Assembly (NCBI GenBank): GCA_051599415.1
Contig: AP039690.1
Span: 186,001 to 250,000, forward strand
Direction of reading: 5' to 3'
Origin: Savitreella phatthalungensis
Taxonomy: Eukaryota
Length of the DNA: 64,000 nt
In this document: one piece after another, positions 7,810 to 53,481 of the stretch
Position numbering within the stretch: position 1 is the stretch's first letter
Layout of the letters: each line of letters starts with the position of its first letter
Made by a program: the position numbers and the translations under genes
Notes under the pieces: generated by a model
Told to the model about the DNA's origin: nothing
Seen by the model: only the letters and a program-made list of their open reading frames with translations
Database searches by the model: none

Positions 7810-8433
7810 ATGGAGGTGGCGCGCCATGGATATCGATACGCTTCGCAGTACTGTGAGGAGAACATTTACCACTTGGCGAACGACTTGCTGACAATGGATG
7901 GAGATGTGGATGCATCTGTCGTGTTCATCAGTAATCGGCTTCGCAGGGTTCCATTTTTCTCGACTGTCAAGCATGCAACGACGCCTGATCGACCGCTGAT
8001 CTGGGACTACCATGTGATCCTGGTGACCCATTCAGAGTGCGGTGTTGCGCAAGTGTTTGACTTCGATGCCAGCACGGTGTTTCCTACACCATGGCAAGTG
8101 TACAGGTCGGTAGTCTTACGAACGCACCTGCCGCTGCTGGAAGACTTCAGACGAATGTACAGGGTGATCCCTGCGCGGAGGTTTCTGGAGACTTTTGCGT
8201 CAGACAGGTCGCATATGCTGGATCCGTGTGGAGACGGCACATACTTTGCGCCGATTCCAAATTGGCCGCTGATCCGAGGGACTTTGTCAGTCTCCCTCAT
8301 GACGCTGCATGCGCTGATTCAGATCCCGTCGTTCGACACTTCTGACGACAGTGCACTGGGACGTGTCATGACGGAGGACGAATTTGTCAAGTGGATGAGC
8401 GAGCATGGTGAAGGGAGACGCTTGAACGGGTGA
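7810..8433 (+). CDS. NTAQ1: Protein N-terminal glutamine amidohydrolase (WDYHV family)
   Basis: YCEENIY (catalytic Cys), IWDYHVI, FDFD and FASDRSHM signature motifs. Confidence 0.92.
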   Translation: MEVARHGYRYASQYCEENIYHLANDLLTMDGDVDASVVFISNRLRRVPFFSTVKHATTPDRPLIWDYHVILVTHSECGVAQVFDFDASTVFPTPWQVYRSVVLRTHLPLLEDFRRMYRVIPARRFLETFASDRSHMLDPCGDGTYFAPIPNWPLIRGTLSVSLMTLHALIQIPSFDTSDDSALGRVMTEDEFVKWMSEHGEGRRLNG

Positions 8434-8549
8434 CCTTCCACGTGCTTGGATGTGATGTCCGTCTGTTTGAGGACACGCTATGAGATAACATCCCGCTCTT
8501 CCGACAAACGTTATCAGACCCCAACAGATTCGAGCGTTACAGTTGCAGG

Positions 8550-8870
8550 ATGAGCAGGAAGTGGACAGACGACATGGAGAAGCGGATGCTGGTGAGCGCG
8601 CTGTGCCAGGTGACTGGTGGTGGTGGTGCTGGCTTGGAGGTGGATTTTGACAAGATTGCTGCTGAGCTGGACGGCAAGTTTACTCCTTCTGCCTGCAGGT
8701 TTCAGCTCTGGAAACTGCGGAGCAAGTGGCGATCGACACAGGCTTCTGGCACTACAGACTCCCCAAACAATCATGCAGGTGCCCGTCATCAGGCCTTACC
8801 GTCCCCGCCCAAGAAACGTAAGCAAAACGCGCCTCCGCCGACAATGGACGCAGATGACAGCGAATATTGA
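8550..8870 (+). CDS. Small Myb/SANT-like nuclear protein, paralog A (106 aa)
   Basis: KWTDDMEKRML...DFDKIAAELDGKFTPSACRFQLWKLR, NLS PKKRK, acidic end. Similar to the two adjacent ORFs. Confidence 0.75.
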   Translation: MSRKWTDDMEKRMLVSALCQVTGGGGAGLEVDFDKIAAELDGKFTPSACRFQLWKLRSKWRSTQASGTTDSPNNHAGARHQALPSPPKKRKQNAPPPTMDADDSEY

Positions 8871-8926
8871 GAACTTTGAATGCTGTCATTCACGTCCCGT
8901 ACCTTCTTTCGAATCGTTGTCTAAGG

Positions 8927-9313
8927 CTACTCGCTACTACTGTCGGCGTAATTGATTTCGACATCAGCTGATTCAGAGTCGTCAGCGGCATCGTCTTGAT
9001 TGCTGTGTTTGGGGCGTCTTGACTTGTTTGAGGGTGAGCCTGCACCGTTGTTTGTGGTCTTGCGCTTTCGCGGGGATGGCTGTGGTGATTGCTGCTTCGA
9101 CTGTGCATCGAGTCCAGGCTGTAGTGCTGATTTGAGCTTGTTGAACTGCTGGAGGCACCCGCTCGGGGAAGCTCGTCCGACCGCGGCAGCGACGAATTCC
9201 CATGAGACACCAGACTGCACAGCTGTCCTTCCCCCGACGGACTGTATCGACATCAACATTGCAAGTAGAAGCTTCACGCGCTCTTCAGCCGTCCAGGGCT
9301 TATCTGCACCCAT
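8927..9313 (-). CDS. Small Myb/SANT-like nuclear protein, paralog B (128 aa)
   Basis: PWTAEERVKLLL...SWEFVAAAVGRASPSGCLQQFNKLK, NLS PRKRK, acidic tail. Confidence 0.75.
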   Translation of the reverse strand: MGADKPWTAEERVKLLLAMLMSIQSVGGRTAVQSGVSWEFVAAAVGRASPSGCLQQFNKLKSALQPGLDAQSKQQSPQPSPRKRKTTNNGAGSPSNKSRRPKHSNQDDAADDSESADVEINYADSSSE

Positions 9314-9567
9314 CGACAGAACTGGCCAGGTGGCAAATTTTCAAATGAGAGTGGTACGACGATGAAGGATGGATAATCTTATGCGAGATCGTGATGAGCG
9401 GTTGGATGCTGAGGGGGATGATCGCCTGTCATCCATTTACTTCTCAAACAAGAGGGAAGCGGTTGGCGTGGGGGAGGCCTCAGGAATGTGGATCGACCGA
9501 TGGCTGGGAGGGTCCATGCTAATTTGAAACTACTAAGAGGATGGGAGTAACGTAAGCGCTTAATCTG

Positions 9568-9981
9568 CTACGAAGAGTCACCTTCATCATCTGCTTCAGC
9601 CTCATCTGGGGAGGGCTCCTCTTCTGCTTCTTCTTCCTCTTCCTCTTCAGTCTCGTATTCGTCTTGCTTGCTTTTTCTGCGGCGACGTTGCTGCTGTGAT
9701 TGCTGCTGTTGCTTCTTGACCGGTGAGAAGGTGAGAGTTGAAGTCTTGCGCTTGCGTGGTGTCGATTGTGCTGCATCCGCTGTTGATGATGAGGTAGAAG
9801 AGCCTGTAGCGAGTGCTCCTGCAGCTTTTCTGAGTATTGCGTAACGATGGGTCAGCGCTTTCGGCGTAAATTCAGGACCTAGCGTAGCAGCAGCCGCTAC
9901 CAAATCTGCCTTAACATTAGCGTTGTGGATGACGATGAGAAGAAACCTCTTGTCCAGCTCATCTGTCCACTTGACTGGCAT
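9568..9981 (-). CDS. Small Myb/SANT-like nuclear protein, paralog C (137 aa)
   Basis: KWTDELDKRFLL...DLVAAAATLGPEFTPKALTHRYAILRK, NLS PRKRK, poly-Glu tail. Confidence 0.75.
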   Translation of the reverse strand: MPVKWTDELDKRFLLIVIHNANVKADLVAAAATLGPEFTPKALTHRYAILRKAAGALATGSSTSSSTADAAQSTPRKRKTSTLTFSPVKKQQQQSQQQRRRRKSKQDEYETEEEEEEEAEEEPSPDEAEADDEGDSS

Positions 9982-10268: not shown

Positions 10269-12365
10269 TCACTGAAGCTCGACATAGTTTGCAGGGAACA
10301 GCCCTTCTTCTCCAGCTGAGTTCCGGCCCTGCCACCAGCCTTCATCAAGCTGCTCGATGTGAGTGATGGTATCTCCCTCAGCGAACGAAATCTCCCCTTC
10401 TTCTGCAGCATCATAGCCATACTGTGCAATCGCTGTCTGGCCAGCAGATGCAGAAGACGCAGCGTGTGCAGGCGCGGCGCCGGCTGCTGCTGTTGCTACA
10501 GGTGCAGGCGCCGGGGTAGACGCTTCTTCTCCCTCGATCAGCTCAACGTAATTGGCTGGGAAAAGACCTTCGTTGCCTGCGCTGTCGCGTCCTTGCCACC
10601 AGCCTTCATCGACTTCCTCGATATGGGTGATCAGGGCTCCATCTTGGAGTGAGAGCTCGTTGTCTTCCTGAGCCTCGTAGTCATACACCACACGCGCAGT
10701 CTTGCCTTGCCCACCAGCAGCTGTGCCAACAACAGAAGTGGACGTATTTGCGCGAGATGGCTCGGAAGGTCGGCTTGTAGCAGGCGAGGCGCCTCCTCCA
10801 AGCTGCTTCTCCAGTTGAGCTTTGAATGCGTTCTGAGGTTGAGCTGGAGTCGCTTCCGGTTCTGGCTCCTCCTCCTCTTGTGCTTCGGGTTCGGGCTCGG
10901 GCTCTGGCTCTGACTCCGGCTCAGGTTCAGGCTGAGCAGGACGTGCAGCGCTTGGACGCGTTCCCATTGGTGGCGGCGGCGGTTGTGCCCTCTCTTCTGG
11001 GGCTACTGGCTCTGTGGCTGGAGGCGGCACTGGCGCTCTCGGAGTGATGGTGGTCGCGGCTAATCGCTGCTGCACGCTCTTGATGGGTTGTGATTCGTCC
11101 GCTTCGTCATCATCTTCATCGTCGGGCTCATCGGCGCGTGCGGGCGCTGGGGCACGAGGTACAGGAGCAGGTGCTGGGGTGTCGTCGTCGTCGTCCTTGA
11201 CAGGGCCATCTGAGCCATAGACAGTCGCCTTGACTGGTGCCTCGACTGGTTGTGCGTCAGGAATGGTCTCACCACGCTCTCGAGCTTTCCGCTCTGCCCA
11301 CAGCTGCGCAGGTGTTTTGCCACCTTCAGATCCGAAGTTCTTTGACAGCCCTCCGACGGCCTTGCTCGAGCTCGTTCCAGCCGAGCCGGGGATTGAGTAT
11401 GAGAGAGGTTTTGTGCCTGCTGCTGCTGCACTTGCTCCGAAACGCGATGCGAGTGGGTTAGTCTTCTTGGCAGAAGACGGTGCTGATGTGGCCGGAGAGG
11501 AGGCGTTGGAAGACTGCTGGAATGCTATCATGCGATCCTTGAGTGACCCTGTCTCTGGTACTTGTGCAGGCTCGTAGTTTGTTCCAGAACGCTCGTTGGT
11601 GGTCTTGCTGGCAGGTCCAGAGGAGACTGTCTGGGATGCTTGTGCTCGCAGGGCTGCAATGTCTGGTGTGCCGATCGGCTGGTAGCTCGACTTGACAGGC
11701 TCGTCTACTGACCGAGCTGTTGAAGCTGGTGCGGAGGTCTTTGGTGCAGCTGGTGCCCAGTCGTCTGCTTTCTTCGCAGCGAATGTGGAAGGCTTTGTAG
11801 CTGTGTTGGCTGGCTTGGGGGCTTGTGTGCCTGCACCAGAAGGAAGTCGAGGCTCTGTCTTTGCGAGTGTGTTGCGTGACTTGAGCTGCGCGACGAGTGA
11901 ATTTGTGGTCTTTGGAGCGGTGGCTGGAGCGGCAGAACCGACTCGTGAACTTCCGCCAGAGTATTTTGCGCCGGAAGAGTCTTCGACCTTACGAAGGATA
12001 GCCTCAGGCGTGACATCTTCATCCGAGCGTGCTGTGATCTGGACATGGTAGCCTTGGAGTTGTCGAGCGATGCTGGCAAAGTGCTGCTGGAATGAGGACT
12101 TGCGTGCAGCACCTTCGCCGCAATAGCCAACGAGGACAAGCTTCGGAAGTCCGGAGGATGGGTCCTTGACTCGGAGGAATGCATACTGGATTTTGCCATC
12201 ACTGAATTCGTCCGCTAGCTCTATCAGGTCATCTCCTTGCGCTTGGACTTTGATGGCGTCTGCATCATAAGAGAAGACTGCCCATGCTGTGTCATTACCG
12301 TCCGAGGCTCTACGAATTTGATCGTAAGCTGATTGAACATCAGCGCCAATCGATAGCGCAGACAT
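10269..12365 (-). CDS. ABP1: Actin-binding protein Abp1/App1 (drebrin-like: ADF-H plus two SH3 domains)
   Basis: N-terminal ADF-H (FSDGKIQYAFLRVKDPSSGLPKLVLVGYCGEG), Pro-rich linker, two SH3 domains (DEGWWQG...GLFPANYVEL). Start ATG 12365. Confidence 0.9.
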   Translation of the reverse strand: MSALSIGADVQSAYDQIRRASDGNDTAWAVFSYDADAIKVQAQGDDLIELADEFSDGKIQYAFLRVKDPSSGLPKLVLVGYCGEGAARKSSFQQHFASIARQLQGYHVQITARSDEDVTPEAILRKVEDSSGAKYSGGSSRVGSAAPATAPKTTNSLVAQLKSRNTLAKTEPRLPSGAGTQAPKPANTATKPSTFAAKKADDWAPAAPKTSAPASTARSVDEPVKSSYQPIGTPDIAALRAQASQTVSSGPASKTTNERSGTNYEPAQVPETGSLKDRMIAFQQSSNASSPATSAPSSAKKTNPLASRFGASAAAAGTKPLSYSIPGSAGTSSSKAVGGLSKNFGSEGGKTPAQLWAERKARERGETIPDAQPVEAPVKATVYGSDGPVKDDDDDTPAPAPVPRAPAPARADEPDDEDDDEADESQPIKSVQQRLAATTITPRAPVPPPATEPVAPEERAQPPPPPMGTRPSAARPAQPEPEPESEPEPEPEPEAQEEEEPEPEATPAQPQNAFKAQLEKQLGGGASPATSRPSEPSRANTSTSVVGTAAGGQGKTARVVYDYEAQEDNELSLQDGALITHIEEVDEGWWQGRDSAGNEGLFPANYVELIEGEEASTPAPAPVATAAAGAAPAHAASSASAGQTAIAQYGYDAAEEGEISFAEGDTITHIEQLDEGWWQGRNSAGEEGLFPANYVELQ

Positions 12366-14672: not shown

Positions 14673-15539
14673 TTATTCGTGGCCACCGGTGTAGACACTA
14701 GGTCGCTCGCTCTCGGTTGAGTTTCTGGCGGATCCTGGAGCAAGTGCACGAACTGAGCAGTTGGTGTCGAGACTGCGTCGCCTGCGCGGACCCTTTGATG
14801 AGGAAGCCAAGGTGAGCGTACTCGCATTGTCAGCCGCGCCGAAACTCCCGCCGCCACTTACACCGCCTCCCAGTATGCCCATCCGGCCTGACAGAATGCT
14901 CGCAGGTCCGTTCGCACCTGTGCTGCCAGCGAGATGTGTTGTCGGCTGCGTCTCTGCCGTGCGCGTGGTGAAGATGCTTGGAATCGGCGACTCCTTCGAC
15001 GATCGCACGGACGGCGGGGAGGTCGGCGTCGTGTGGATGATCGGCGCGGTACCTGTCGTTTCTGCTGTTGTGGCTGTATTGAGTGGTGGTTCGATGTCAG
15101 GATCGTCATGCCGGTGCGAGGTTGCGATGGCTGGAGGAGTTGGGAATCGAGGTGCCTGTGCTGCACGCGGCGTCTGTGCTGCCGATGTGATGTCTGTTGC
15201 GGTCAGATCTCCTTCAATCTCGTGCTCTTCGTCGAGTGCGCTATCATTGCCAGCTGCTACGTCGACATCCAAGACTGCTTGGTTGGAGGCGATGGATGGC
15301 ACACGTGTGCTGATGGTAGGTCTGAGTGAGGATGTCTCTGGCGGAAGTGAAGCTGCATCCTCCCGAATGCCTAGTACTGGTATGTCATGAGAGGCTGAGT
15401 GTTGTGGAACTGTGAGGCTTGCGCCATCAGCTGAATCGCTTTCTTTGGGTCGCCTGTACAAACGTTGTAGCCAAGAGAATGGCTTTCTCTGTTGTTGTTG
15501 GGATCCAGGTGATCTTCTGACTCCTGCGACTTCTGCCAT
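14673..15539 (-). CDS. Uncharacterised Ser/Thr/Pro-rich fungal protein
   Basis: 288-aa ORF from ATG 15539. Mostly disordered, with a motif-like C-terminal block DNASTLTLASSSKGPRRRRSLDTNCSVRALAP. Confidence 0.7.
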   Translation of the reverse strand: MAEVAGVRRSPGSQQQQRKPFSWLQRLYRRPKESDSADGASLTVPQHSASHDIPVLGIREDAASLPPETSSLRPTISTRVPSIASNQAVLDVDVAAGNDSALDEEHEIEGDLTATDITSAAQTPRAAQAPRFPTPPAIATSHRHDDPDIEPPLNTATTAETTGTAPIIHTTPTSPPSVRSSKESPIPSIFTTRTAETQPTTHLAGSTGANGPASILSGRMGILGGGVSGGGSFGAADNASTLTLASSSKGPRRRRSLDTNCSVRALAPGSARNSTESERPSVYTGGHE

Positions 15540-22826: not shown

Positions 22827-23814
22827 CTAGTCAAACTTGAGCCAGCCATTCGACACACCAGCCTTGAAGATCAACTTGCCAAGCCAATGGTACTCGTGCA
22901 CTTCTTCAAAAAGTCTCTCAAATCTGCTCGTGTCCTGGACGAGCAGCGCCTGCATGATCCTGATGTAAGCACTCGCCAGGCGCTCATACCGACCGATGAC
23001 GCGCTCTTCTGCGTAGCCATCGAGCTCTGCAAGCCGCTCACACAGCGTTTCGAAAATCATCCGCGACTCCTCATTCCGTCCACTGGCCATCTCAGCAACC
23101 ATCGACATCAGCAACTCCATCATCTCATCCTCATCCACCTCCTTTGACTTTTGCCACGCCATCACGATGTCTTCGATTTCGTCGACGAGTGATATGCATC
23201 GCTTGTACATCACTTTCGGAGGAATATCGTGCCTGAGTCGTGTATCGTGAAGAAACGCCGCAACAGCCTGTCGGTGACTCACCGCGTCTCGCTCAGTCCT
23301 GAGTACGTTGACAAATTCATCACAGACTTGTTCCCATCGATCGACGCCTGTTGTTGAGTCCCCGGACGCTTTCAGATCCAGCAGCAAATCTAGCAGGTAC
23401 TCCGACTTGATACTCACGCTGCTCAGCCGCGGGATCTCATACGGCTTTACGTAGTTGGTTGCTGTAGAGTGAGTCTTTGCAGGCGCTGTGGAATCGGTTG
23501 ATTGTGGCTTGGCGCACTCGGCCCGGTGCAGAACGGCGCGGAGTCTCGTGTTTTTTCGCTGCTCTTCTTGCAAGCGCTTCTTCCAGAACTCGATTCCGTC
23601 AAAGTAAAACTTCTGCTCGTTTGACGATCCTGACGATTGTCCATACGGTGGCACATTGGTGATTGACTCCCGCAGTAATTCGACGTACGTCTGTGGTGTC
23701 ATAGCGCGCGGTATCGACCGAGCTAGCGCAATAGCCTGCATCAATCAGGTCAGCATCAATACGTCGACTGAAAACGGGACATACGAGGACCTGCTCGTCA
23801 TCAGAAGATGCCAT
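22827..23814 (-). CDS. Putative Mei4/Rec24-like meiotic double-strand-break protein, 2 exons, 312 aa
   Basis: Exon 1 23814-23785 (MASSDDEQVL), 49-nt intron GTATGT..GCTGAC..GCAG, exon 2 23735-22827. N-terminus LAIALARSIP...TYVELLR...FWKKRLQEE..RLR resembles MEI4 signature motifs. Confidence 0.6.
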
Positions 23815-41486: not shown

Positions 41487-43791
41487 ATGGCTTATCACGG
41501 ACGGATCGATCACAGTGGCAATGTGATTGACACTCAACTCGAGCAAGGACAGCCTGGATCCAAAACAAGAGATGACGTTCAGCTTGTCGTTGCCGACGAG
41601 TACGGTAACTTGCTCTCGATGATCTCCTTCCTCAATTATGGACCACGTCGTGGAAAGCAGCACGAGAGTGCTCAAGCACTTGTCCACACCCTGCCACGCA
41701 GCATGCTTGGTGTACGCGTTCTCCAGGCGTATCAGGAGCTCGGTGTCACGACACGCAGCACATTCTGCCCTATTGACAAACTCGACTCACTCGTCAGCGA
41801 CATGGGTAATCAAATTGCTTTCATCACAAGCATCGATCCTTTCTTACGTCCCGCTTCCTCGCCTCATCCACGTAACGAGAGTGTCTTCGACTTCAATGCC
41901 GCATCATCATCACGTGTGGGCTCTTCCAAGGACCCAAAGCAGGTCAAAGTGCAGACCATTGTACCACATGACAGACAGCACGCAGACCTGTCAGAATTTC
42001 TCGCGACGAGCTCCGACGATGCATCTGTGGTCGGTGAGTCAATGAGCGACGAAGAGGTTTATCGTCTTGTGGGAGACTTCTCACCCGCATCACTAGGACC
42101 TGGTGGATTTGGCGCTCGACTTGAGGACATTATTGCACGCGAGCGCCTTGGTAAAGGAAAGGCAAAGTCGGCAGATCCATGGCAGACAGCCCTCCAGCTA
42201 TTCGACCACCGCGAGTTCTGGTCAGCCTGGATCAACCGCATCCGTGCTACTTCAGAACAAGACAATCGATTCAAGCTATCCAAGGAAATCCAGTCGATCC
42301 ATCAGGCTGTTCTCGATGGTTTGCCCCGACCGGCTGATCACAGGATTGCGCACATTCGTCGGCCACGGAAACTCTTGTTGAACAAGATACAAAAGCTGGT
42401 GAGTAACTCCCGGTTTTGTGGGGTGTCCTTAGCTCACCGTCGCAGACTTTGAAACAGCGATTCGCGCTCATTTGCAGCCCGAGGCATGAAGTACATGTCG
42501 CGGACGTCATGCTCAGCGACCACGAAGTTGATGCCTTGAATCACGTGGGGACCCTGTCTCATCTGGAGAAGATTATCGCGCACGTCCGTACCAGCTTTGG
42601 AGAAAGCTATCCTCGTACACGTGGCAGCGTTCATTTCAAATTGGTAAGAGTCCTCGAATTAGCACGACCAGTATTGACATCCAGGTGACATGTCTCATCT
42701 TCCAACTCGTCTGCTACACTTATCTGCATGACGCTACAGAGACAACCAATCAGTCGCTGGCGATGCGATTGTCCAAAGCAAGTTTGACGCCTGCAGTTGT
42801 CCAGGCACAATCAAGCTCAGGGACCACGAGCGGAGTACCGCCGGCCGAAGGATGGCTTGCACCTGATCTGCCACGCGGGTCTGCCAAGACGATGACAAAC
42901 GCTGAGTCAAGGGCTGTCACACAACTGTTACAGCAAGGTCGTCAGCGTGCATCGTCCGTAAACGCCGCAAATGCCACACCTTCTGGAGAAACACTGCTAC
43001 CTCTGCGCGCAACTCAACAAGTCGATGGAGTCCTCGGTGAGCGTAGGCTGAGCACTCTCAATATCGCGGCGTCTGTTCAGCACGCTCAACTCGGGCACAA
43101 AGTGTCGGCAGAACGTCTCAGTCTGCTGCCGTCTCCGAGTAAGAGTCGCGTGAGTGCGCGCCAAACGGCATCACGCGAGACTCTCGGTGATGTCCCAGCT
43201 AGCTACACCACAGCCCCATCCACTCCTCAACAAGCACAGTATGCGCTCATACCTGCACCAATCAATACGCCTCGTCATCCGCCTGTCTCGCTGATCACTG
43301 CGGCCGAACAGCAACGTCGGACGTCACTAGAGCGTCGTCCCTCTAGCAAGACGGCTCACCCGCTACTAGTAGGAGAGCGTACTTCTGCCTCAGTGACGAA
43401 GCCGCAAACAACGCTGGCCATTGCAAGCGCTCACTCATCGCAAAACAATACGCCCCTGAAGCAGCAGCAGCAGCAACGAGACTACAATGGACATCTCGAT
43501 CATTCTTATCAGGCCGCGAAGCCGGTTGACATTCAACCCGAGCGTACGAAAGCAGGCAGCTTGCCACCCGCGGAGGTCTCAATGGCTGGTCACAGCGCTG
43601 CAGATACTCTCTCGTACTCTACTCAGCCTTCGACGTTGCGTGTTCTATCGACTAAAAGCGCTCGAGATGCTGCGCGAGCTATTAAGGCTCATCCGACGAC
43701 ATTCAGACCGATTCGCCGCACAACCGCGCCCGCGTCTATCGCGGCGCGGGACGCCAAAGTTGCGTCATTCATCAACTCCGGTGACTTCTGA
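41487..43791 (+). CDS. Uncharacterised protein, 3 exons, ~738 aa
   Basis: Exons 41487-42398, 42446-42643, 42685-43791 joined in phase 0 by introns GTGAGT..GCTCAC..GCAG (47 nt) and GTAAGA..TTGAC..CCAG (41 nt). This unites three ORFs of the track. Confidence 0.7.
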
Positions 43792-44067: not shown

Positions 44068-45558
44068 ATGCAAGCTCCTGAACAGCGCCTGAGCGCAAAT
44101 GACGCTCGTTCGGGTGGCTTCTACTCCGAGTCCCTGCGAACGAAGCACTTTGCCTCCCGACTCATGCCCACATGTCGATTTGACAACGGGCTCGACACAC
44201 AATCTCGCCCTGACACGCATCAAGAGCCCACGGTTATCCCTGACATCGATTCAGATGATGATTCAACCTATTGGGACGCTTCACTTCGCTTTGGGACTGC
44301 TATTGGAACTGGTTGGCGTCGTGATACGTCAGAGCGTGCCCATGTTGCTCTCGACGCGGAGCACGATCCGGAAGTCATCGCTGCAGCCCACACTCTCATG
44401 AGCATGCGTCATGATCACGGACCTCTCGACATTGAGAATCCAAATCGAGCTCTCATCAATCCTGCTCAACGGCACAATAACCTGGAATCAAAATCAAGCG
44501 CCCTGAGCTCTGTTCGGACAATCGCCACGCCCAGTATCCTGTCACGGAAATCTGACAGTCACAAGAATCCTTACTTGTACGAGGACGAGGATGAGGAACA
44601 ATCTGACTACTTCGACGAGACTTTGAAGTTCGGAACACGTCTTGGCGAACGCAGTCCCAGCAAAGCGGCCGCACAAAAGGCACCTGCCGATCACTTACCT
44701 GAGAAACTGATGACCGTTACTGCCGCTGATGTCGCAAAACTTCCCAACACGTACGTCAGTTCTGAATCGTCGTACGTACGCGCTGCGGCGCGAGCTCGAC
44801 CCCATGGCAAGCGCTCTTACAGTCATCGCGAGCTGAATTGGTGGTGGCGGTATGGTGGAGGCGCGATCGGCTCGCTGGAGAATGAGCCTCCAAAACTCAG
44901 CAACTTGCCCGTCGTATTTGATACGGAGGATGAGGTTGATGAAAATGAATTTGCCAATGACACTGACGACGTGTACCAGCAGCACCTCGCAGAACTCGAG
45001 TTCTTCACGGATTACCTGCTGCCATGTGAATGCACACACCGTCATCAACCGAATTTGGCGGCTGATTGTTTGCCACATTTCTGCGCCGTCTTGACCGAAT
45101 TGGACAATATGCGCATCACGGAGCACATGGTCCCCTCGTTGGCATCGATCGAACACTTTTGGCGGGCGTTCAATGAGAGCAGTAGGCTACCGGCCAATCT
45201 CGCGGCAGCAAGGCGGCTCAGTCAGCAAGCAAGAATCCTCTTGACTCTCGTAAGCGCTGGACACGTCTCTGAAGAGCTGCCCGTGCCGTCAAGTCCCGTT
45301 CAGTCAGGTCAGATTGACAGAGAGGATGACATTAACGATGTCGATGCCACCATTCGAGCATCGAAGGTTCAGCAGCAACAGCAGCAAAAGCACAAGCAGA
45401 AGGCCGCTCGAAATGTGCGACCGCCGAACCATAAACTTGGGCTAGATGTCTGCAATCGGTTGCGACTGCGGAATCATGCACGAACGATCAAGGCACTCAC
45501 TCAGGCTGTTTGTCTAAGAGCTGCATTGAGCGATCTCGAAGAACAACAAGCTTCTTGA
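44068..45558 (+). CDS. Uncharacterised protein with a duplicated acidic-aromatic motif
   Basis: 496-aa ORF from ATG 44068, no recognised domain, two copies of [DE]-rich-Y[WF]DxxL[RK]FGT. Confidence 0.7.
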   Translation: MQAPEQRLSANDARSGGFYSESLRTKHFASRLMPTCRFDNGLDTQSRPDTHQEPTVIPDIDSDDDSTYWDASLRFGTAIGTGWRRDTSERAHVALDAEHDPEVIAAAHTLMSMRHDHGPLDIENPNRALINPAQRHNNLESKSSALSSVRTIATPSILSRKSDSHKNPYLYEDEDEEQSDYFDETLKFGTRLGERSPSKAAAQKAPADHLPEKLMTVTAADVAKLPNTYVSSESSYVRAAARARPHGKRSYSHRELNWWWRYGGGAIGSLENEPPKLSNLPVVFDTEDEVDENEFANDTDDVYQQHLAELEFFTDYLLPCECTHRHQPNLAADCLPHFCAVLTELDNMRITEHMVPSLASIEHFWRAFNESSRLPANLAAARRLSQQARILLTLVSAGHVSEELPVPSSPVQSGQIDREDDINDVDATIRASKVQQQQQQKHKQKAARNVRPPNHKLGLDVCNRLRLRNHARTIKALTQAVCLRAALSDLEEQQAS

Positions 45559-52677: not shown

Positions 52678-53481
52678 ATGGGTCGCTCAGCCAAGTACAA
52701 TCGAGTTTCGAGCGAAGATCCCAATCGCTTCAATTTTGAAGCGCGCCTCTCGAGCGAAACACCGAGACGCTATTCGGACGACAGCGCAACGCTTGCAGAT
52801 TCCGCCAGCGAGCGCGAGAAGAATACTACTGATGGCGACGATTTCGATGTCAGCGAAGACGAAATTGAAAGCTTAATGAATGAGGATCCGCTGCAGCATC
52901 CGCAAGCTAAGCAGCAGAAGCGACTAACGAAGAAGGATGCTAGACGTGCTGCTCGCAAAGCTCGGAAGCTGACTCGCCGGCTCGGCCGTCGTTGTACTTT
53001 CAAGCGTCATCTGATTGCAATCGCCTTCCTTCTCCTGGTCGGTCTCGGAGCCGCCCTGGCTTTTGTAAAACTTGGCAGCAAGAGCAGCGAGAGCGTTAAC
53101 GCTCAACCAGGTTCAGATGTGAGCGCAACATTGGACAATTTGGAGACCGTTCCAAGTCTCGCTGGCAATATCGATGTCAGTCCGGAAGACTTCGCAGACA
53201 TCAAGCCGTTCCCAATGTCACCAGTGCCGGTCGATGAATCAGGCATGGCCGTCAATGGCCCACCAGAGCTCTCGCCAGAAGCCGTGCAACAGGCACAGGA
53301 CATCCAGGGCGACATCGTGACGTCCCATTCCACGCTTTCTGCCTCGGACCGTCTGAAGGAGAGCTTCGGAGGTGCTGTCGATAATTTGCGTGATATGGCC
53401 GACGAGCTATGGGCATGGGTCGACGCCAAGTGGCGTGACATCTGGGCGAATTCGCCCACGTCCGGCCAACCCATCTACTGA
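52678..53481 (+). CDS. Uncharacterised single-pass (type II) membrane protein
   Basis: Acidic then basic cytosolic region, one TM (LIAIAFLLLVGLGAALAFV), acidic C-terminal region. Confidence 0.7.
   Translation: MGRSAKYNRVSSEDPNRFNFEARLSSETPRRYSDDSATLADSASEREKNTTDGDDFDVSEDEIESLMNEDPLQHPQAKQQKRLTKKDARRAARKARKLTRRLGRRCTFKRHLIAIAFLLLVGLGAALAFVKLGSKSSESVNAQPGSDVSATLDNLETVPSLAGNIDVSPEDFADIKPFPMSPVPVDESGMAVNGPPELSPEAVQQAQDIQGDIVTSHSTLSASDRLKESFGGAVDNLRDMADELWAWVDAKWRDIWANSPTSGQPIY

What the first reader, a model, noticed from the sequence alone, without database searches (positions are those of the whole stretch)
8550..9981. Cluster of three divergent small Myb/SANT-like paralogs sharing a CDK-site/NLS module and acidic tail
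Seen: three intronless 106-137 aa ORFs packed into 1.4 kb (+,-,-) between NTAQ1 and ABP1. All share one architecture: an N-terminal W-T-x-[DE]...LL helix, a second helix (D/W..A...[LV]), a [ST]P-x-[AG] turn and a third helix ending L[RK]. Each then has an [ST]P site abutting a basic NLS (SPPKKRK, SPRKRK, TPRKRK) and a D/E-rich tail. Identity between them looks low, suggesting old duplication and retention. Established: three-helix Myb/SANT domains bind DNA or histone tails, and CDK sites beside an NLS often gate nuclear import. Inference: a co-located, uncharacterised set of small chromatin/DNA-binding factors that may act as hetero-oligomers or under cell-cycle control. This is my best candidate for an undescribed system in the window.
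Basis: partly seen in the sequence, partly recalled or inferred. Interest (0 to 1): 0.75.

Follow-up and report, generated by a model that had tools for sequence, protein, structure and literature searches.

The report
Three clustered small Myb-like fungal genes
Three neighbouring small genes in this fungal window encode divergent copies of a widespread but unstudied ascomycete family of small proteins with a Myb-like three-helix head, a conserved nuclear-targeting-type basic motif and a mostly acidic tail.

Summary
Three ORFs (A 8550-8870 +, 106 aa; B 8927-9313 -, 128 aa; C 9568-9981 -, 137 aa) lie between an N-terminal glutamine amidase gene and an ABP1-type gene. They are weakly but significantly alike (BLASTP E 2e-6, 8e-8, 0.013; 22-29% identity). 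In each, only the named frame has a positive codon score.

A profile of the three finds 54 proteins in 1.84 billion. Seven are genuine Myb-repeat proteins. Most of the rest are small proteins with the same layout, named only 'hypothetical' or 'Myb-like domain-containing' in Aspergillus, Peltaster, Sarea, Bisporella and Sclerotinia. Pfam PF22980 (Myb_DNA-bind_8) matches 17 of 42 aligned members, all below its cut-off, and none of A, B or C.

AlphaFold models of C and B give three-helix heads, and their nearest PDB folds are Myb/SANT domains, though not significantly. The [ST]P-x-[KR][KR] motif is in 36 of 42 members, against 1.4 expected.

So these are divergent new members of a catalogued, uncharacterised family. 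Nuclear DNA or chromatin binding is inferred. Hetero-oligomers, cell-cycle control and clustering in other fungi remain untested.

The parts
8550..8870 (+). Gene A, 106 aa, intronless: small Myb-like protein, a divergent paralog
   Evidence: ORF. Family-only HMM E 7.5e-16. Only frame with a positive codon score, 0.156. The protein database holds it as a 98-aa model starting at Met9 (P0001).
8550..8729 (+). A residues 1-60: inferred three-helix Myb/SANT-like head, with a GGGGAG loop between helices 1 and 2
   Evidence: Aligned to the heads of C and B. Not modelled here.
8802..8822 (+). A residues 85-91, SPPKKRK: [ST]-P-x-[KR] site abutting a basic cluster
   Evidence: Sequence; motif count.
8927..9313 (-). 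Gene B, 128 aa, intronless: small Myb-like protein, the most divergent paralog
   Evidence: ORF. Family-only HMM E 1.6e-12. Codon score 0.193, the only positive frame. In the protein database as P0002. Weak PF00249 match, E 0.073.
9122..9313 (-). B residues 1-64: three-helix head with a 12-residue insertion between helices 1 and 2
   Evidence: AlphaFold model of residues 1-67: mean pLDDT 77; helices 9-25, 38-45 and 50-64, plus a short 32-35. Foldseek top matches are Myb/SANT domains, best E 0.28.
9059..9076 (-). B residues 80-85, SPRKRK motif
   Evidence: The DNA here is 72% identical over 36 nt to the matching stretch of C (D1).
8930..8995 (-). B residues 107-128: acidic and serine-rich tail
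   Evidence: Net charge of the last 30 residues is -6.
9568..9981 (-). Gene C, 137 aa, intronless: the canonical family member of the three
   Evidence: ORF. Family-only HMM E 2e-29. 47% identity to P0031 and P0051. Codon score 0.262. Not found in either protein library, so probably unannotated.
9802..9981 (-). C residues 1-60: three-helix Myb/SANT-like head
   Evidence: AlphaFold model: block pLDDT 85-96 over residues 1-60; helices 7-21, 27-34 and 40-58; the rest is without secondary structure.
9745..9762 (-). C residues 74-79, TPRKRK motif
9712..9726 (-). C residues 86-90, SPVKK: second [ST]P-basic motif, common in the family
9571..9663 (-). C residues 107-137: strongly acidic tail
   Evidence: Net charge of the last 30 residues is -19.

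Best explanation
A, B and C are three real, separately transcribed, intronless genes produced by local duplication. Each encodes a small protein of a Pezizomycotina-wide family.

The layout of each protein is:
- directly after the start Met, a single Myb/SANT-like three-helix domain of about 55-65 residues, homologous to Myb repeats and close to Pfam PF22980;
- a disordered Ser/Thr/Pro/Ala linker;
- a conserved [ST]-P-x-K/R-K/R-K/R motif, often with a second [ST]P-x-KK;
- a tail that is usually acidic.

Most likely mode of action (inferred, not shown): the basic motif serves as a classical monopartite nuclear import signal. Its neighbouring proline-directed Ser/Thr is a possible phosphorylation switch. 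In the nucleus the mildly basic head (pI about 9; helix 3 net +2 to +5) contacts DNA or nucleosomes. The acidic tail tunes that binding or binds histones, as in small architectural chromatin proteins.

C is the conventional member. A and B are fast-diverged or older copies.
For: Shown:
- ORFs and paralogy.
- A coding signal only in the named frames.
- A and B are already in a predicted-protein database.
- The profile of the three alone finds 54 proteins at E <= 1e-3 in 1.84 billion. Seven are true Myb-repeat proteins (PF00249 E 1e-45 to 1e-79). In those alignments W5 of the family matches the first Myb Trp, and the helix-2 and helix-3 hydrophobic positions match the second and third.
- 39 small proteins share the layout.
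- PF22980 gives sub-threshold matches in 17 of 42 members, PF00249 in 5 of 42 and PF13921 in 3 of 42.
- The nearest ESM-Atlas clusters for C and B are Ascomycota clusters in which PF22980 is on 25-40% of members.
- Three-helix models for C (pLDDT 85-96 over residues 1-60) and B (mean 77).
- Foldseek top lists are dominated by Myb/SANT domains: DNAJC2 SANT prob 0.96, RAD Myb TM 0.67 at rmsd 1.8, c-Myb R1 TM 0.63.
- The motif is in 36 of 42 members, against a mean of 1.4 (max 6) in 2000 tail shuffles.
- The Pro of the motif and W5 are the only invariant columns.
- Domain pI is 8.7-9.7 in the three; the family median is 8.98.

Inferred from established knowledge: K-K/R-x-K/R is the classical NLS consensus and [ST]-P-x-[KR] the CDK consensus (recalled). 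CDK control of NLS modules is documented (PMC9385143; search listing and start of abstract seen only).
Against: - No experiment or expression data bears on any member.
- None of A, B or C reaches a Pfam gathering score. B reaches 13.6 bits against 24.4 for PF00249, and there is no PF22980 hit even at E <= 10.
- No family member tested reaches PF22980's 27-bit cut-off; the best is 26.8.
- Foldseek E-values are all above 0.28, so none is significant.
- A's fold was not modelled.
- The retrieving profile contained the basic motif, so the 36 of 42 figure is inflated by selection.
- A has hardly any acidic tail.
- Single Myb/SANT domains can equally be protein- or histone-binding modules.
- C is absent from both protein libraries, so its status as an expressed gene has no outside support.
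Confidence: 0.6

Rival explanations
1. The heads are SANT-type protein-interaction modules, not DNA binders. The small proteins would act as adaptors or as competitive 'small interfering' Myb proteins that titrate a partner of larger Myb factors, as plant RADIALIS does with DRIF.
For: Foldseek top hits include SANT domains of DNAJC2, SMARCC/BAF, Ada2-like and SMRT, and the RAD Myb domain (TM 0.67, rmsd 1.8). Size and single-repeat layout resemble RAD (PMC6278869 and PMC6838138; search listing and start of abstract seen only). Relatives with 2-3 repeats exist that could be the full-size counterparts (P0005, P0021, P0029, P0042, P0048).
Against: The heads are basic (pI 8.7-9.7), whereas histone-binding SANT domains are typically acidic (recalled). 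No partner is known. The Foldseek scores are not significant.
Confidence: 0.2
2. The [ST]P-x-KRK motif, with the second [ST]P-x-KK, is mainly a minor-groove DNA-binding element of the SPKK / AT-hook type. The proteins would then be HMG-like architectural factors: a DNA-binding head, basic hooks and an acidic tail. Nuclear import would be a by-product.
For: 4 of 42 members carry a true AT-hook core directly after the motif, e.g. KRKRGRP. The best Atlas cluster for C is auto-named 'AT hook motif protein' (0.92). [quoted passage not shown] SPKK motifs as minor-groove binders and CDK targets in histone H1 are recalled.
Against: A, B and C have no R-G-R-P core (0 of 3). One or two short motifs give weak binding on their own. 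This reading does not exclude an NLS function.
Confidence: 0.25
3. The three proteins assemble on DNA, or with each other, as a split three-repeat Myb (a hetero-oligomer). This would explain why three divergent copies stay adjacent.
For: Adjacency of three divergent copies. Relatives exist with three heads in one polypeptide (P0042 and P0048).
Against: Each of the three is a complete unit with its own motif and tail. They lie on both strands with separate upstream regions that share no word of 7 nt or more. A, B and C do not match repeats 1-3 of P0042 preferentially: P0042 is absent from the 11 non-self hits printed for each of A, B and C.
Confidence: 0.05
4. One or more of the ORFs is not a functional gene, being a chance ORF or a decaying duplicate. 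The candidates are C, which is missing from the protein libraries, and the divergent A and B.
For: C is absent from both protein libraries. A and B have only 25-37% identity to any relative. No close orthologs were found.
Against: All three keep an intact frame from the first ATG, plus the invariant Trp and the motif Pro. All three have a positive codon score in the named frame only. C is the best family match (2e-29).
Confidence: 0.05

Closest known systems
Pfam PF22980 (Myb_DNA-bind_8), an uncharacterised Myb-like domain family
   Same: It matches the same N-terminal 50 residues in 17 of 42 aligned family members (E 5.5e-6 to about 0.1). It is carried by 25-40% of members of the nearest ESM-Atlas clusters of C and B.
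   Different: A, B and C give no hit to it even at E <= 10. No relative tested reaches its 27-bit cut-off; the best is 26.8. The model covers only the head, not the conserved [ST]P-x-KRK motif or the tail. I could not read Pfam's own description. No paper mentions the family.
Canonical Myb/SANT repeats (Pfam PF00249, PF13921; c-Myb R1-R3, SANT of SMARCC, Ada2, DNAJC2)
   Same: A three-helix bundle with a conserved Trp in helix 1 and hydrophobic positions in helices 2 and 3 in the same register. Profile-to-sequence matches to true Myb-repeat proteins at E 3.7e-13 to 7e-4. They are the nearest PDB folds.
   Different: The second and third Trp are replaced by D[YWFL] and Y/F/I/L. The head is a single repeat placed at the very N-terminus. 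Scores are below the Pfam cut-offs. DNA binding is untested.
Plant small single-repeat MYBs (RADIALIS; recalled also CPC/TRY R3-MYBs)
   Same: Proteins of about 100 aa built around one Myb-like domain. The RAD Myb domain is among the best structural matches (2cjj, TM 0.67, rmsd 1.8). They are paralogs of multi-repeat proteins.
   Different: A different kingdom, with no detectable closer relationship than the Myb superfamily. RAD acts by competing for a partner (PMC6278869, start of abstract seen only). It is not known to carry the [ST]P-KRK motif and acidic tail seen here.
HMGA/HMGB-type architectural chromatin proteins
   Same: [quoted passage not shown] A few family members carry real AT-hook cores (4 of 42).
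   Different: No HMG box. A, B and C have no AT-hook core. The resemblance is in layout only.
CDK-regulated NLS modules (SV40 large-T 'TPPKKKRKV', yeast Swi5; recalled)
   Same: A [ST]-P-x-[KR] site fused to a K-K/R-x-K/R basic cluster. A's SPPKKRK is nearly the SV40 arrangement. The motif is conserved in position across the family.
   Different: Neither phosphorylation nor import was tested for any family member. The general principle is documented in PMC9385143 (start of abstract seen only).

Membership tests
Myb/SANT superfamily | Three-helix bundle of about 50 residues | tested here: met
   C: helices 7-21, 27-34 and 40-58, pLDDT 85-96. B: helices 9-25, 38-45 and 50-64, mean pLDDT 77. A was not modelled; it is inferred from alignment.
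Myb/SANT superfamily | Regularly spaced Trp/hydrophobic core residues in register with Myb repeats | tested here: met
   W5 is invariant in 42 of 42. HMM alignments to the Myb-repeat protein P0003 put W5 on the first Myb Trp and the helix-2 and helix-3 hydrophobics on the second and third. Only the first position is still Trp.
Myb/SANT superfamily | Significant sequence similarity to bona fide Myb repeats | tested here: met
   The profile of A, B and C alone hits 7 multi-repeat proteins at E 3.7e-13 to 7e-4 against 1.84 billion proteins. Those 7 score PF00249 E 1e-45 to 1e-79.
Myb/SANT superfamily | Pfam PF00249 / PF13921 gathering score | tested here: not met
   B: 13.6 bits against 24.4, and 12.8 against 22.9. 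A and C: no hit at E <= 10.
Myb/SANT superfamily | Significant structural match to solved Myb/SANT domains | tested here: inconclusive
   The top Foldseek hits are Myb/SANT (prob up to 0.96, TM up to 0.67), but the best E is 0.28 and none is <= 1e-3.
Myb/SANT superfamily | Binding to DNA (Myb) or histone tails (SANT) | not testable with these tools
   The only hint is a basic head (pI 8.7-9.7).
Pfam PF22980 Myb_DNA-bind_8 | Score at or above the 27-bit gathering cut-off | tested here: not met
   No hit for A, B or C at E <= 10. Relatives match in 17 of 42 below the cut-off, best 26.8 bits. The link is through relatives and Atlas clusters.
Small-protein family defined here (N-terminal head + [ST]P-x-KRK + tail) | Head starts within 8 residues of Met1 | tested here: met
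   A has W5, B has W7 and C has W5, as in the 39 relatives.
Small-protein family defined here (N-terminal head + [ST]P-x-KRK + tail) | [ST]P-x-[KR][KR] motif 15-30 residues after helix 3 | tested here: met
   3 of 3 in the window and 36 of 42 overall, against a shuffle mean of 1.4. Caveat: the retrieving profile contained the motif.
Small-protein family defined here (N-terminal head + [ST]P-x-KRK + tail) | Acidic C-terminal tail | tested here: inconclusive
   C is strong (-19 over the last 30 residues), B moderate (-6), and A has only DADDSEY (+1). It also varies among relatives.
CDK-gated classical NLS | [ST]-P-x-[KR] next to K-[KR]-x-[KR] | tested here: met
   SPPKKRK, SPRKRK and TPRKRK. This is a sequence consensus only.
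CDK-gated classical NLS | Phosphorylation-dependent nuclear import | not testable with these tools
AT-hook proteins | R-G-R-P core | tested here: not met
   0 of 3 window proteins; 4 of 42 family members.

The most novel reading that the evidence does not exclude
This Pezizomycotina-wide family is an unrecognised class of small chromatin architectural proteins: a Myb-like head, SPKK/NLS-type basic motifs under proline-directed kinase control, and an acidic tail. The window would preserve a three-gene module whose products act together on DNA like a split three-repeat Myb. Relatives with three heads in one chain (P0042, P0048) would be the fused form.
Probability: 0.07. Interest if true: 0.6.

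Novelty: new member of a known kind. Interest (0 to 1): 0.3.

Why it matters
These genes add three divergent members, one of them apparently unannotated, to a fungal Myb-like family that is catalogued only as 'hypothetical'. For that family I found no functional work. Two features are concrete handles for a first functional study: a nearly invariant [ST]P-x-KRK motif at a fixed distance from the head, and the existence of both one-head and multi-head forms. If the family proves to be abundant chromatin proteins of filamentous ascomycetes, that would be of moderate interest. As it stands, the finding is a sound annotation result, not a new system.

Tried and rejected
- Pfam on A, B and C at E <= 10: no family above its cut-off. 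C's hits to Rpc31 and RPA34.5 lie in the low-complexity tail and were disregarded.
- PDB sequence search with the three-protein profile: 0 hits at E <= 10.
- Foldseek with the full-length C model: diluted by the disordered tail, all E > 3. It was repeated with the head of B alone.
- Word-indexed protein search with the three-protein profile returned only the window's own A and B. With C residues 1-85 it returned nothing, not even C itself.
Names for P0003-P0054 are therefore lacking, except those that reappeared.
- Complex prediction on the three heads (A 1-62, B 1-67, C 1-60, partner C): verdict 'no answer', score 0.02 against a mark of 0.34. My alignments were not used and the partner's own fold was uncertain. 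This is neither for nor against binding.
- Shared promoter words: none of 7 nt or more is common to the three upstream regions. There are isolated CACGTG (upstream of A) and ACGCGA and CCAAT (upstream of C).
- Tree of 42 heads over 67 columns: 0 starred branches. Monophyly of A+B+C is not rejected (p-AU 0.66), so the age of the duplication is open.
- Literature: 0 papers for 'PF22980' and 0 for 'Myb_DNA-bind_8'. Two broader searches listed nothing on this family.
- dN/dS was not attempted: no close orthologs were found, and the paralogs are too diverged.
Full report
**1. What is there.**
The window carries three ATG-initiated ORFs at the stated place (table 1):
- A, 8550..8870 on +, 106 aa
- B, 8927..9313 on -, 128 aa
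- C, 9568..9981 on -, 137 aa

In each, the start is the first ATG of the stop-to-stop frame. The left neighbour (7810..8433 +) is an N-terminal glutamine amidase (PF09764, E 2.2e-44). The right neighbour (10269..12365 -) has a cofilin/ADF domain and two SH3 domains, the ABP1 layout.

Spacing is tight:
- 116 nt from the amidase stop to A's ATG
- 56 nt between the converging stops of A and B
- 254 nt from B's ATG to C's stop
- 287 nt from C's ATG to the ABP1 stop

The rest of the window is ordinary housekeeping sequence with long uninterrupted ORFs: Sec10, Sec66, an rRNA adenine dimethylase, a PX protein, an ATP synthase alpha/beta-family subunit, FAN1, AMP deaminase, DnaJ and others.

**2. Are they genes, and are they alike?**
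I derived a codon log-odds score from 18 long ORFs of the window. It is positive only in the named frame for each of the three (A 0.156, B 0.193, C 0.262; the other five frames are all negative). This is in the range of confirmed neighbours, 0.03-0.24.

Pairwise BLASTP gives A-B E 2e-6 (27% identity), A-C 8e-8 (29%) and B-C 0.013 (22%). A three-way alignment has M1, the helix-1 Trp, the Pro of [ST]P before helix 3 and P-x-KRK invariant.

Two stretches still show DNA-level similarity:
- the KWTD..KR.L coding part of A and C (78% over 32 nt, inverted because the genes are on opposite strands)
- the PRKRKT coding part of B and C (72% over 36 nt)

There is no fourth copy in the window.

A has ML where it wrote LL. 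A's 'acidic tail' is only the last eight residues.

**3. Relatives.**
I searched a profile of the three (head to motif, alignment A2) against 1.84 billion representative proteins. It found 54 at E <= 1e-3. They break down as follows:
- 2 are the window's own A and B.
- 7 are long proteins with 3-6 matched stretches each. Pfam confirms them as genuine Myb-repeat proteins (PF00249 E 1e-45 to 1e-79).
- 39 are small proteins (92-226 aa) with the same layout as A, B and C.
- 6 are longer models of the same kind.

By a head-only HMM, five of those six longer models carry two or three heads in one chain: P0005, P0021 and P0029 have two; P0042 and P0048 have three.

A word-indexed search with the 42-sequence alignment gave 19 hits. 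All are named 'hypothetical protein', 'uncharacterized protein' or 'Myb-like domain-containing protein'. They come from many Aspergillus species, Peltaster fructicola, Sarea resinae, Bisporella sp. and Sclerotinia nivalis. So the family spans several classes of Pezizomycotina.

C is a conventional member: 47% identity to P0031 and P0051 (E about 1e-20), and E 2e-29 against a family profile built without the window's proteins. A (7.5e-16) and B (1.6e-12) are clearly members but divergent, with best outside identities of 25-37%.

The head tree is unresolved, with 0 starred branches. A and B fall loosely with P0016, P0037, P0044 and P0047, while C sits in the main group. Yet a tree holding A+B+C together is not rejected (p-AU 0.66). 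I therefore cannot say whether the triplet is old.

**4. The head.**
Pfam gives nothing above its cut-offs for A, B or C. B has a weak PF00249 match (E 0.073).

Among the 42 aligned members, PF22980 (Myb_DNA-bind_8) matches 17, PF00249 matches 5 and PF13921 matches 3 at E <= 0.1. Every PF22980 score seen is below that model's 27-bit cut-off; the best is 26.8. The ESM-Atlas places C (0.92) and B (0.91) next to Ascomycota clusters that are auto-named 'AT hook motif protein', 'hypothetical protein' or 'Myb-like domain-containing protein'. PF22980 is on 25-40% of the members of those clusters.

The AlphaFold results are:
- C, folded with the family alignment, has three helices (7-21, 27-34, 40-58) at block pLDDT 85-96, followed by about 80 residues without structure.
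- B, residues 1-67, has helices 9-25, 38-45 and 50-64 at mean pLDDT 77. Its 12-residue insertion forms the loop.

Foldseek against the PDB gives no significant E-value (best 0.28). However, the list for B's head is almost entirely Myb/SANT domains: 1wgx, DNAJC2 SANT, CDC5L, SMARCC, RAD, c-Myb R1, Ada2-like, ZZZ3 and SMRT.

HMM alignments put the family's invariant Trp on the first Myb Trp. They put D[YWFL] of helix 2 and the Y/F/I/L of helix 3 on the second and third.

Taken together, homology to Myb/SANT repeats is well supported. Formal Pfam membership is not met.

**5. The motif and tail.**
[ST]P-x-[KR][KR] occurs downstream of the head in 36 of 42 members. When each tail is shuffled, the mean is 1.4 and the maximum 6 in 2000 trials. 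For the window's three it occurs in 3 of 3, against 0 of 2000. Its Pro is one of only two invariant columns. One caveat applies: the profile used for retrieval included the motif, which favours motif-bearing hits.

Many members have a second [ST]P-x-KK 10-25 residues later, as C does (SPVKK). Four of 42 continue into a true AT-hook core; A, B and C do not.

By consensus the motif is both a classical monopartite NLS and a full CDK site. Those consensus patterns are recalled. CDK control of NLS modules is documented in PMC9385143, of which I saw only the search listing and the start of the abstract.

The heads are mildly basic: pI 8.7-9.7, family median 8.98, helix 3 net +2 to +5. This fits a nucleic-acid-binding Myb better than an acidic SANT, a criterion I recall rather than tested.

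**6. How it most likely works.**
Shown:
- three paralogous coding genes of a widespread small-protein family
- a Myb-type three-helix head
- a conserved [ST]P-basic motif

Inferred:
- nuclear import through that motif
- possible phosphorylation of the adjoining Ser/Thr
- contact of the head with DNA or nucleosomes
- modulation by the acidic tail

The rivals are:
- a SANT-type or RADIALIS-like competitor role
- the basic motifs acting mainly as minor-groove hooks in an HMG-like architectural protein
- a hetero-oligomeric or 'split three-repeat' module
- decay of one or more copies

These are set out with their evidence in the Rival explanations section. The first two are compatible with much of the main reading.

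**7. Novelty.**
The kind, a Myb-like domain protein, is known. The domain is partly catalogued in Pfam. The family itself is unstudied, as far as four literature searches show.

What is new here:
- two very divergent members
- one apparently unannotated member (C)
- a corrected start for A
- the recognition of the fixed [ST]P-x-KRK motif
- the tight triplet arrangement

**8. Verdict.**
Novelty: new member of a known kind. Interest: 0.3.

Noticed in passing
window 8550-8576: The protein database holds gene A as a 98-aa model that starts at Met9 (P0001). The first in-frame ATG at 8550 adds MSRKWTDD, which contains the Trp that is invariant in all 42 family members. The true start is therefore very probably 8550.
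   Followed up: yes
window 9568-9981 (-): Gene C is the best family match of the three. Yet it was not returned by either protein library, not even as a self-hit. It is probably missing from the source genome's annotation.
   Followed up: partly
proteins P0005, P0021, P0029, P0042, P0048: Some relatives carry two or three heads in one predicted chain. In P0005 the two helix-1 Trp residues are 52 residues apart, the spacing of canonical Myb repeats. P0042 and P0048 look like alternative models of one three-head gene with introns inside the heads. I could not tell whether these are true multi-repeat proteins or merged tandem genes.
   Followed up: partly
window 8439-8444: A palindromic CACGTG E-box lies 5 nt after the glutamine-amidase stop codon and about 105 nt upstream of A's ATG. 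The whole promoter and 5' UTR of A must fit in 116 nt, which also holds the neighbour's 3' end.
   Followed up: no
window 8871-8926: A and B converge with only 56 nt between their stop codons, so their 3' UTRs must overlap or be very short.
   Followed up: no
window 9369-9527 (+): A 52-aa ORF in the B-C intergenic region has a mildly positive codon score (0.115). It has no family match and is probably chance.
   Followed up: no
window 14673-15539, 22827-23741, 41487-42452, 42763-43791, 44068-45558, 52678-53481: Six ORFs of 267-496 aa have no Pfam match at E <= 1e-5. They were not examined further.
   Followed up: no
A and B heads (A residues 20-30, B residues 22-37): A and B share a Gly-rich insertion between helices 1 and 2 that C lacks. 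A similar G-x-G loop occurs in the Myb repeats of the top long hits (P0003, P0004, P0026, P0050), which may be why those scored best.
   Followed up: partly
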